Source of the DNA: an uncultured Thermococci archaeon
GTDB taxonomy: Archaea; Methanobacteriota_B; Thermococci; Methanofastidiosales; B48-G16
DNA: 64,000 nt
Direction of reading: 5' to 3'
Assembly: GCA_964595645.1 (NCBI GenBank)
Contig: CAZQQT010000003.1
Location: forward strand, 64,001 to 128,000
The notes under the pieces are model-generated. The model was not told the origin of the DNA and did not search any database. It saw only the letters and a program-made list of their open reading frames with translations. The position numbers and the translations under genes are program-made. Shown here in pieces: positions 24,639-28,453 of the stretch (positions are counted from its first letter, which is position 1; every line of letters starts with the position of its first letter).

Positions 24639-28453
<3,815 letters not shown>

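What the first reader, a model, noticed from the sequence alone, without database searches (positions are those of the whole stretch)
27071..27091. RNA polymerase catalytic loop is GADFDGD, not NADFDGD
Seen: Rpo1N reads [14 protein letters not shown]. The codon is GGT, at least two substitutions from AAY, so a single miscall is unlikely. Known: this Asn (E. coli beta' N458, yeast Rpb1 N479) is near-invariant in cellular multisubunit RNAPs and contributes to NTP ribose recognition. Inference: a natural housekeeping RNAP with an altered sugar-selection site or compensating changes.
Basis: partly seen in the sequence, partly recalled or inferred. Interest (0 to 1): 0.72.

Follow-up and report, generated by a model that had tools for sequence, protein, structure and literature searches.

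The report
Archaeal RNA polymerase missing "invariant" asparagine
The only RNA polymerase of this uncultured archaeon and its family has glycine where papers describe a universal asparagine beside the catalytic aspartates; the same swap recurs in other archaea and a cultured giant virus, so it is probably a tolerated variant with mild effects, not new chemistry.

Summary
Observation confirmed. The window reads GADFDGD (codon GGT) in the only Rpo1N of a 99.96% complete Thermococci/Methanofastidiosales genome; Gly455 equals yeast N479.

It is not an error. Gly is fixed in 5/5 family genomes (three codons) and 19/19 family proteins, against Asn in 100/100 next relatives.

It is not unique. A 190-row tree needs 26 changes at this site. 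Gly or Ala occurs in about 4-5% of sampled Nanobdellota and Micrarchaeota, and Gly in Cafeteria roenbergensis virus. In a metagenome sample, Gly/Ala (two base changes) outnumber Ser/Thr (one change) 117:3.

R446 and Q1078, the main sugar selectors, are unchanged in every carrier. No single compensating residue co-varies. DPANN carriers show extra trigger-loop changes; this family shows only N1082S, shared with Asn-keeping relatives.

Published N-to-A/S mutants are viable and lose selectivity only modestly. Best reading: a working housekeeping enzyme, perhaps somewhat slower, with water replacing the amide (inferred). No paper found, but this scan noted the same loss earlier in other archaeal and phage DNA. 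This family is the cleanest test case outside DPANN.

The parts
27071..27091 (-). Metal-A catalytic loop GADFDGD of Rpo1N; the three aspartates are intact
27089..27091 (-). Gly455 codon GGT (yeast N479, E. coli N458, Pyrococcus N459)
   Evidence: family codons GGT/GGC/GGA
25805..28453 (-). rpo1N (RpoA'), 882 aa, single copy in the genome
   Evidence: TIGR02390 1354 bits, cut-off 1043
27188..27190 (-). Arg422 (yeast R446, E. coli R425), main 2'-OH selector, retained
   Evidence: Arg in 64/64 Gly/Ala carriers; role from PMC7862312
24639..25808 (-). rpo1C (RpoA''), 389 aa, carries the trigger loop
   Evidence: TIGR02389
25554..25589 (-). Trigger-loop nucleotide-interacting region [12 protein letters not shown]: Q1078, L1081, F1084 and H1085 equivalents are canonical; the N1082 equivalent is Ser (25563-25565)
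28458..31775 (-). rpo2 (unsplit RpoB), 1105 aa; metal-B E720-D721 intact
28860..28862 (-). Rpo2 Ser972, a family-wide change at a Gly found in 178/178 other rows; candidate partner change, link to Gly455 not shown
31777..32019 (-). rpo5 (RpoH), first gene of the rpo5-rpo2-rpo1N-rpo1C-L30e-nusA-S12-S7-EF2 cluster

Best explanation
This is the normal, working housekeeping RNA polymerase, using ordinary two-metal chemistry. The Asn beside the catalytic aspartates is a secondary contact to the NTP ribose, and removing its side chain is tolerated. R446 and trigger-loop Q1078 still select ribose. An ordered water probably fills the place of the Asn amide, at the cost of a few-fold weaker sugar discrimination and perhaps slower or more pause-prone elongation. 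The Gly became fixed in the ancestor of a family whose RNAP is somewhat less constrained. Gly and Ala are acceptable while Ser is not favoured, so the site behaves as a two-state switch rather than drifting freely. SHOWN: sequence, fixation in the family, single copy, recurrence, Gly/Ala bias, intact partner residues, no single compensating residue. FROM PAPERS: mild effects of N-to-A/S in other RNAPs. INFERRED: water replacement, the kinetic cost, and the reason Ser is avoided.
For: Single copy, with Rpo2, 3, 5, 6, 7, 10, 11, Rpo1C and an intact TFS. R446, P448, P477, Y478 and A480 invariant in 64/64 Gly/Ala carriers, Q1078 in 62/62. 26 changes on the tree, with Asn rows nested inside a Gly clade. 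Gly 84, Ala 33, Ser 2, Thr 1 in a metagenome sample; Gly 28, Ala 5 in viral contigs. The family departs from conserved columns at 2.7-4.0% against 0.5-1.9% in sister families. E. coli N458S lowers binding selectivity only 4-fold (PMC7862312). Thermus N737A has a small effect on 2'-dNTP and a fivefold effect on 3'-dNTP discrimination (PMC2874521). An E. coli N458A strain grows and hyper-attenuates (10.1101/2020.06.16.155770). N479 binds the 2'-OH through water W2 (PMC7619134).
Against: No Gly mutant has been measured in the papers I could search. Yeast N479S has a severe in vitro elongation defect (PMC3325174), so the cost may be large in Pol II-like enzymes. Asn is kept in 96/96 Thermoplasmatota main copies and 100/100 near relatives, so the change is normally selected against. 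The near absence of the one-step Ser intermediate fits positive selection as well as tolerance. No coordinates were available to test the water cavity.
Confidence: 0.6

Rival explanations
1. Epistatic remodelling: Gly works only together with changes in coupled residues (trigger-loop N1082S here, or Rpo2 G972S), which permit or compensate for it.
For: In yeast, N479, Q1078 and N1082 are interdependent and N479S/N1082S is viable (PMC3325174). The family has Ser at 1082. Across independent pairs the Gly/Ala member departs more in the trigger-loop region, 8.5:0.07 (p 0.004; 0.16% of 623 other windows reach this), while all conserved columns give 13.5:10.4. H1085 is replaced in 5/62 Gly/Ala carriers and 0/124 Asn carriers. 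Rpo2 G972S is unique to the family.
Against: Ser1082 also occurs in family f3, which keeps Asn, and most Gly carriers have R, N, D or K there. The paired test for that site is not significant (4.1:1.7, p 0.6). No column survives correction (best p 0.008 of 1435). The trigger-loop window was refined, one other window scored higher, and this family has no departure in those seven columns.
Confidence: 0.22
2. Adaptive change: Gly was selected because it alters substrate range or pausing, or escapes an inhibitor that binds at the NTP site.
For: Repeated arrival at a residue two base changes away, with Ser/Thr nearly absent. Fixation across the family with a free third codon position. N458A changes attenuation in E. 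coli (10.1101/2020.06.16.155770).
Against: No shared ecology or gene-content correlate was found. TFS and NrdD are present throughout the family. The genome-size contrast is not significant (14:7, p 0.19). Apparent returns to Asn occur. No inhibitor is known for these organisms.
Confidence: 0.15
3. Artefact, recoding, or an inactive paralog.
For: Reads could not be checked. One Thermoplasmata genome carries Gly in a decaying second copy.
Against: Independent genomes use three different Gly codons. 19/19 family proteins have Gly. The gene is single-copy in a 99.96% complete genome, in an intact operon with intact motifs.
Confidence: 0.02

Closest known systems
Pyrococcus furiosus / Thermococcus kodakarensis Rpo1N (PDB 8CRO, 4QIW)
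   Same: Best solved relatives (about 1188 bits); Thermococcaceae-like genomes are 61-62% identical. Same operon; bridge helix and trigger loop nearly identical.
   Different: The Thermococcaceae-like relative examined has Asn at this site and at the 1082 position (L030); here Gly and Ser.
Laboratory mutants E. coli beta' N458S and N458A, Thermus N737A, yeast Rpb1 N479S
   Same: Same residue altered; viable or active, with modest loss of sugar discrimination (PMC7862312, PMC2874521, PMC3325174, 10.1101/2020.06.16.155770).
   Different: Engineered, Ser or Ala rather than Gly. Natural carriers avoid Ser, the substitution most used in the lab.
DPANN Rpo1N with Gly/Ala (Woesearchaeota, Pacearchaeota, Parvarchaeota, Micrarchaeota, Iainarchaeota)
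   Same: Same motif, R446 and Q1078 kept; the only copy in 49 of 50 genomes checked.
   Different: Separate origins; genomes mostly 0.5-1.2 Mb; bridge helices and trigger loops much more diverged. This family has 1.1-2.0 Mb assemblies and an otherwise canonical core.
Cafeteria roenbergensis virus BV-PW1 Rpb1 (YP_003970001.1)
   Same: Reads GADFDGD, codon GGT; a cultured natural carrier.
   Different: Viral enzyme with a diverged trigger loop. Copy number in that genome could not be checked.
Nanoarchaeum equitans RNAP (PMC8204694)
   Same: Natural archaeal RNAP with radical active-centre substitutions that is still active in vitro.
   Different: The changes described are in the bridge helix, trigger loop, fork loop 3 and metal-B motif; the paper does not mention NADFDGD.
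Plant Pol IV / Pol V largest subunits (PMC2605557)
   Same: Lack the Asn of NADFDGD and keep the DFDGD core.
   Different: Non-essential specialised paralogs with broad divergence; here it is the sole essential enzyme.

Membership tests
Archaeal housekeeping RNAP, Rpo1N (TIGR02390 / PRK08566) | Scores above the equivalog cut-off; Rpb1 domains 1-5 in order | tested here: met
   1354 vs 1043 and 1390 vs 819 bits; Pfam
Archaeal housekeeping RNAP, Rpo1N (TIGR02390 / PRK08566) | Metal-A aspartate triad DxDxD and Rpo2 metal-B ED motif | tested here: met
Archaeal housekeeping RNAP, Rpo1N (TIGR02390 / PRK08566) | Literal NADFDGD motif, called universal in PMC13198411 | tested here: not met
   GADFDGD. 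The survey shows the Asn is not universal, so it is a poor defining feature
Archaeal housekeeping RNAP, Rpo1N (TIGR02390 / PRK08566) | R446, Q1078, L1081, F1084, H1085 and bridge helix intact | tested here: met
   only the N1082 position differs (Ser)
Archaeal housekeeping RNAP, Rpo1N (TIGR02390 / PRK08566) | Single copy in the rpo operon, with other subunits in the genome | tested here: met
   (Rpo3, 6, 7, 10, 11 found; Rpo4 and Rpo12 not searched)
Archaeal housekeeping RNAP, Rpo1N (TIGR02390 / PRK08566) | Transcription activity and rNTP/dNTP selectivity | not testable with these tools
Specialised divergent paralog (Pol IV/V-like) | Extra copy beside a canonical enzyme, with broad active-site divergence | tested here: not met
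   single copy; no departures in Rpo1C at 54 columns that are at least 90% conserved

The most novel reading that the evidence does not exclude
Gly (or Ala) at this position is a second, selected state of the multisubunit RNAP active site. It was reached independently more than 20 times across a Ser valley, and gives the enzyme different ribose selectivity, pausing or inhibitor sensitivity, tuned together with the trigger loop.
Probability: 0.2. Interest if true: 0.75.

Novelty: new variant of a known kind. Interest (0 to 1): 0.45.

Why it matters
Papers as recent as 2026 call NADFDGD universally conserved (PMC13198411). Natural sole-copy enzymes without the Asn correct that and give an evolutionary test of what this residue is for. 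Lab work used Ser or Ala, while nature uses Gly, then Ala, and almost never Ser, so the Ser mutants may overstate the residue's importance. This family is the best test case: its catalytic core is otherwise nearly identical to Thermococcus and Pyrococcus enzymes that can be reconstituted, so one or two substitutions would reproduce it. The excitement is limited because published N-to-A/S effects on selectivity are small and the change is recurrent.

Tried and rejected
Tip-only independent pairs were used instead.
- N1082S as a required partner: rejected as a general rule.
- A single compensating column: none survives correction.
- Faster overall evolution of Gly members in pairs: 14.3:10.7, not significant.
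- Smaller genomes in pairs: 14:7, p 0.19; sizes are rounded MAG sizes and my Asn controls favoured long contigs.
- Loss of TFS or of dNTP synthesis: both present in the family.
- Backbone-only explanation (Asn/Gly at a left-handed turn): not favoured, because it does not explain Ala 33 against Ser 2; angles could not be measured.
- Literature: no hit for the motif string or for NADFDGD with DPANN; no N-to-G RNAP mutant found.
- Structure prediction not run, since the tools return no coordinates.
- Bacteria not surveyed: my collection patterns required the EM flank.
- No further contig on record for the exact protein.

Full report
1. Observation. Window 27071-27091 on the minus strand reads GGT GCG GAT TTC GAT GGA GAT, GADFDGD, at residues 455-461 of an intact 882-aa ORF. 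The ORF is Rpo1N in the cluster rpo5-rpo2-rpo1N-rpo1C-L30e-nusA-S12-S7-EF2. An ungapped match maps Gly455 to yeast Rpb1 479 and Pyrococcus/Thermococcus 459. The genome (1.97 Mb, 99.96% complete) has one Rpo1N, plus Rpo3, 6, 7, 10, 11 and a TFS with its acidic hairpin.

2. Organism. Its closest named relatives are MAGs such as Thermococci archaeon B48_G16, and next come proteins labelled Ca. Methanofastidiosa. I place it in a family of the Methanofastidiosales; the family name was not established.

3. Not an error. Reads could not be obtained. All five family genomes with the gene have Gly, with codons GGT, GGT, GGC, GGA, GGT. The 24 other genomes of the order and one Thermococcaceae-like genome have Asn. 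Among 120 homologous proteins, the 19 at 80-100% identity all have Gly, 100 others have Asn and one lacks the motif. A fixed GG with a free third base is conservation at the amino-acid level.

4. Distribution. An exact scan of GTDB species genomes for [10 protein letters not shown] found 64 stretches: DPANN archaea, four of this family, and one second copy in a Thermoplasmata MAG. The scan excludes bacteria by its flank, and the genome search set held at least one carrier that it did not list (G317). Even samples gave denominators. Nanobdellota: 2 Gly and 4 Ala in 149 listed matches, leaving out the centre genome. Micrarchaeota: 6 Gly in 128. Thermoplasmatota: Asn in all 96 main copies. Viral contigs: Asn in 119/119 of an unselected sample, but 28 Gly and 5 Ala when selected, including Cafeteria roenbergensis virus Rpb1. 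In 49 of 50 DPANN carriers the Gly copy was the only match. In these searches this family is the only cellular lineage outside DPANN whose sole enzyme has Gly.

5. Recurrence. A FastTree tree of 190 concatenated Rpo1N, Rpo1C and Rpo2 rows, with the site masked, needs 26 changes between Asn and Gly/Ala. The sample is enriched for carriers and the count cannot tell gain from loss. Two Asn rows nest inside a Gly clade, which suggests reversion.

6. Which residues are used. Gly and Ala need two base changes from AAY; Ser and Thr need one. No Asp, His or Lys appeared in the wildcard samples. So the site is not drifting freely.

7. Partners. R446, P448, P477, Y478, A480 and Q1078 are invariant in all carriers. 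The family has Ser at the N1082 position, but so does family f3, which keeps Asn479, and the paired test is not significant. No column co-varies after correction (best p 0.008 of 1435). As a region, seven conserved trigger-loop columns depart more in the Gly/Ala member of pairs (8.5:0.07, p 0.004), and H1085 is replaced only in carriers (5/62 against 0/124). That signal comes from DPANN, was refined after a first look, and one other window scored higher. The family's RNAP departs from conserved columns two to three times as often as sister families. One such change is Rpo2 G972S, at a Gly found in 178/178 other rows; its relation to the active site was not tested. TFS and NrdD are present across the family, so neither lost proofreading nor lack of dNTPs explains it.

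8. What is known. In yeast Pol II, N479 and Q1078 bind the 3'-OH directly and the 2'-OH through a water, while R446 contacts the 2'-OH directly (PMC7619134). E. coli N458S lowers binding selectivity 4-fold; R425 is the main determinant (PMC7862312). Thermus N737A has a small effect on 2'-dNTP discrimination (PMC2874521). An E. coli N458A strain grows and shows increased attenuation (10.1101/2020.06.16.155770). Yeast N479S is slow in vitro but viable, also together with N1082S (PMC3325174). I found no paper with the motif and no Gly mutant; the library lacks most subscription papers.

9. Mechanism. Most likely (0.6) a normal two-metal enzyme that tolerates loss of a secondary ribose contact. 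By inference, water fills the amide position, which Gly and Ala allow and a Ser hydroxyl disturbs. Rivals: dependence on coupled trigger-loop or Rpo2 changes (0.22), a selected change of function (0.15), artefact (0.02).

10. Novelty and verdict. New variant of a known kind. It is real and unreported in the papers searched. Earlier notes of this scan saw the same loss in other archaea and in a phage; I reproduced the archaeal part independently. What this window adds is a carrier outside DPANN with an otherwise canonical core, close to enzymes that can be reconstituted. Interest 0.45.

Noticed in passing
L159 (G043 contig C43) and L158 (G043 contig C30): A Thermoplasmata MAG (isolate SIG7) has two rpo1N copies, 71% identical. 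The second has Gly in the loop, a heavily altered bridge helix and no rpo2 or rpo1C in the 9 kb fetched: an orphan, possibly decaying or specialised paralog.
   Followed up: partly
L146, L152, L157 (trigger loop ...NTKL...), L131, L155 (...VFR...): The catalytic trigger-loop His (H1085) is replaced by Leu or Arg in four Nanobdellota lineages, all of which also lack Asn479.
   Followed up: partly
L530:5447-9928: Cafeteria roenbergensis virus Rpb1 carries GADFDGD and a diverged trigger loop.
   Followed up: partly
window 28860-28862 and 30405-30407: Rpo2 has Ser972 where all 178 other rows have Gly, and Asp457 where 151 of 153 have Glu (also Asp in L036 and L076).
   Followed up: partly
L118, L120-L132, L147, L148, L163-L165, L254, L258, L259: Rpo1N and Rpo1C are fused into one ORF of about 1110-1200 aa in Pacearchaeota-like rows and, apparently separately, in some Micrarchaeota.
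   Followed up: no
L120-L131, L219, L229, L230: The residue after R446 (normally Gln in NRQP) is His in many Pacearchaeota and Tyr in a few other DPANN rows.
   Followed up: no
G000 C8:108912-110639 and C11:56795-58480 (outside the window): Two full-length NrdD anaerobic ribonucleotide reductase matches in this genome.
   Followed up: no
window 18420-20573: A 717-aa ORF with a lipoprotein-like N-terminus and no NCBIfam hit follows EF-2, where EF-1alpha often lies in archaea.
   Followed up: no
window 34149-36842: A PMR1/SERCA-type Ca2+ P-type ATPase above NCBIfam cut-offs, a few genes upstream of the rpo cluster.
   Followed up: no
window 32113-32270: tRNA-Lys(TTT) and tRNA-Asp(GTC) lie directly upstream of rpo5.
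   Followed up: no
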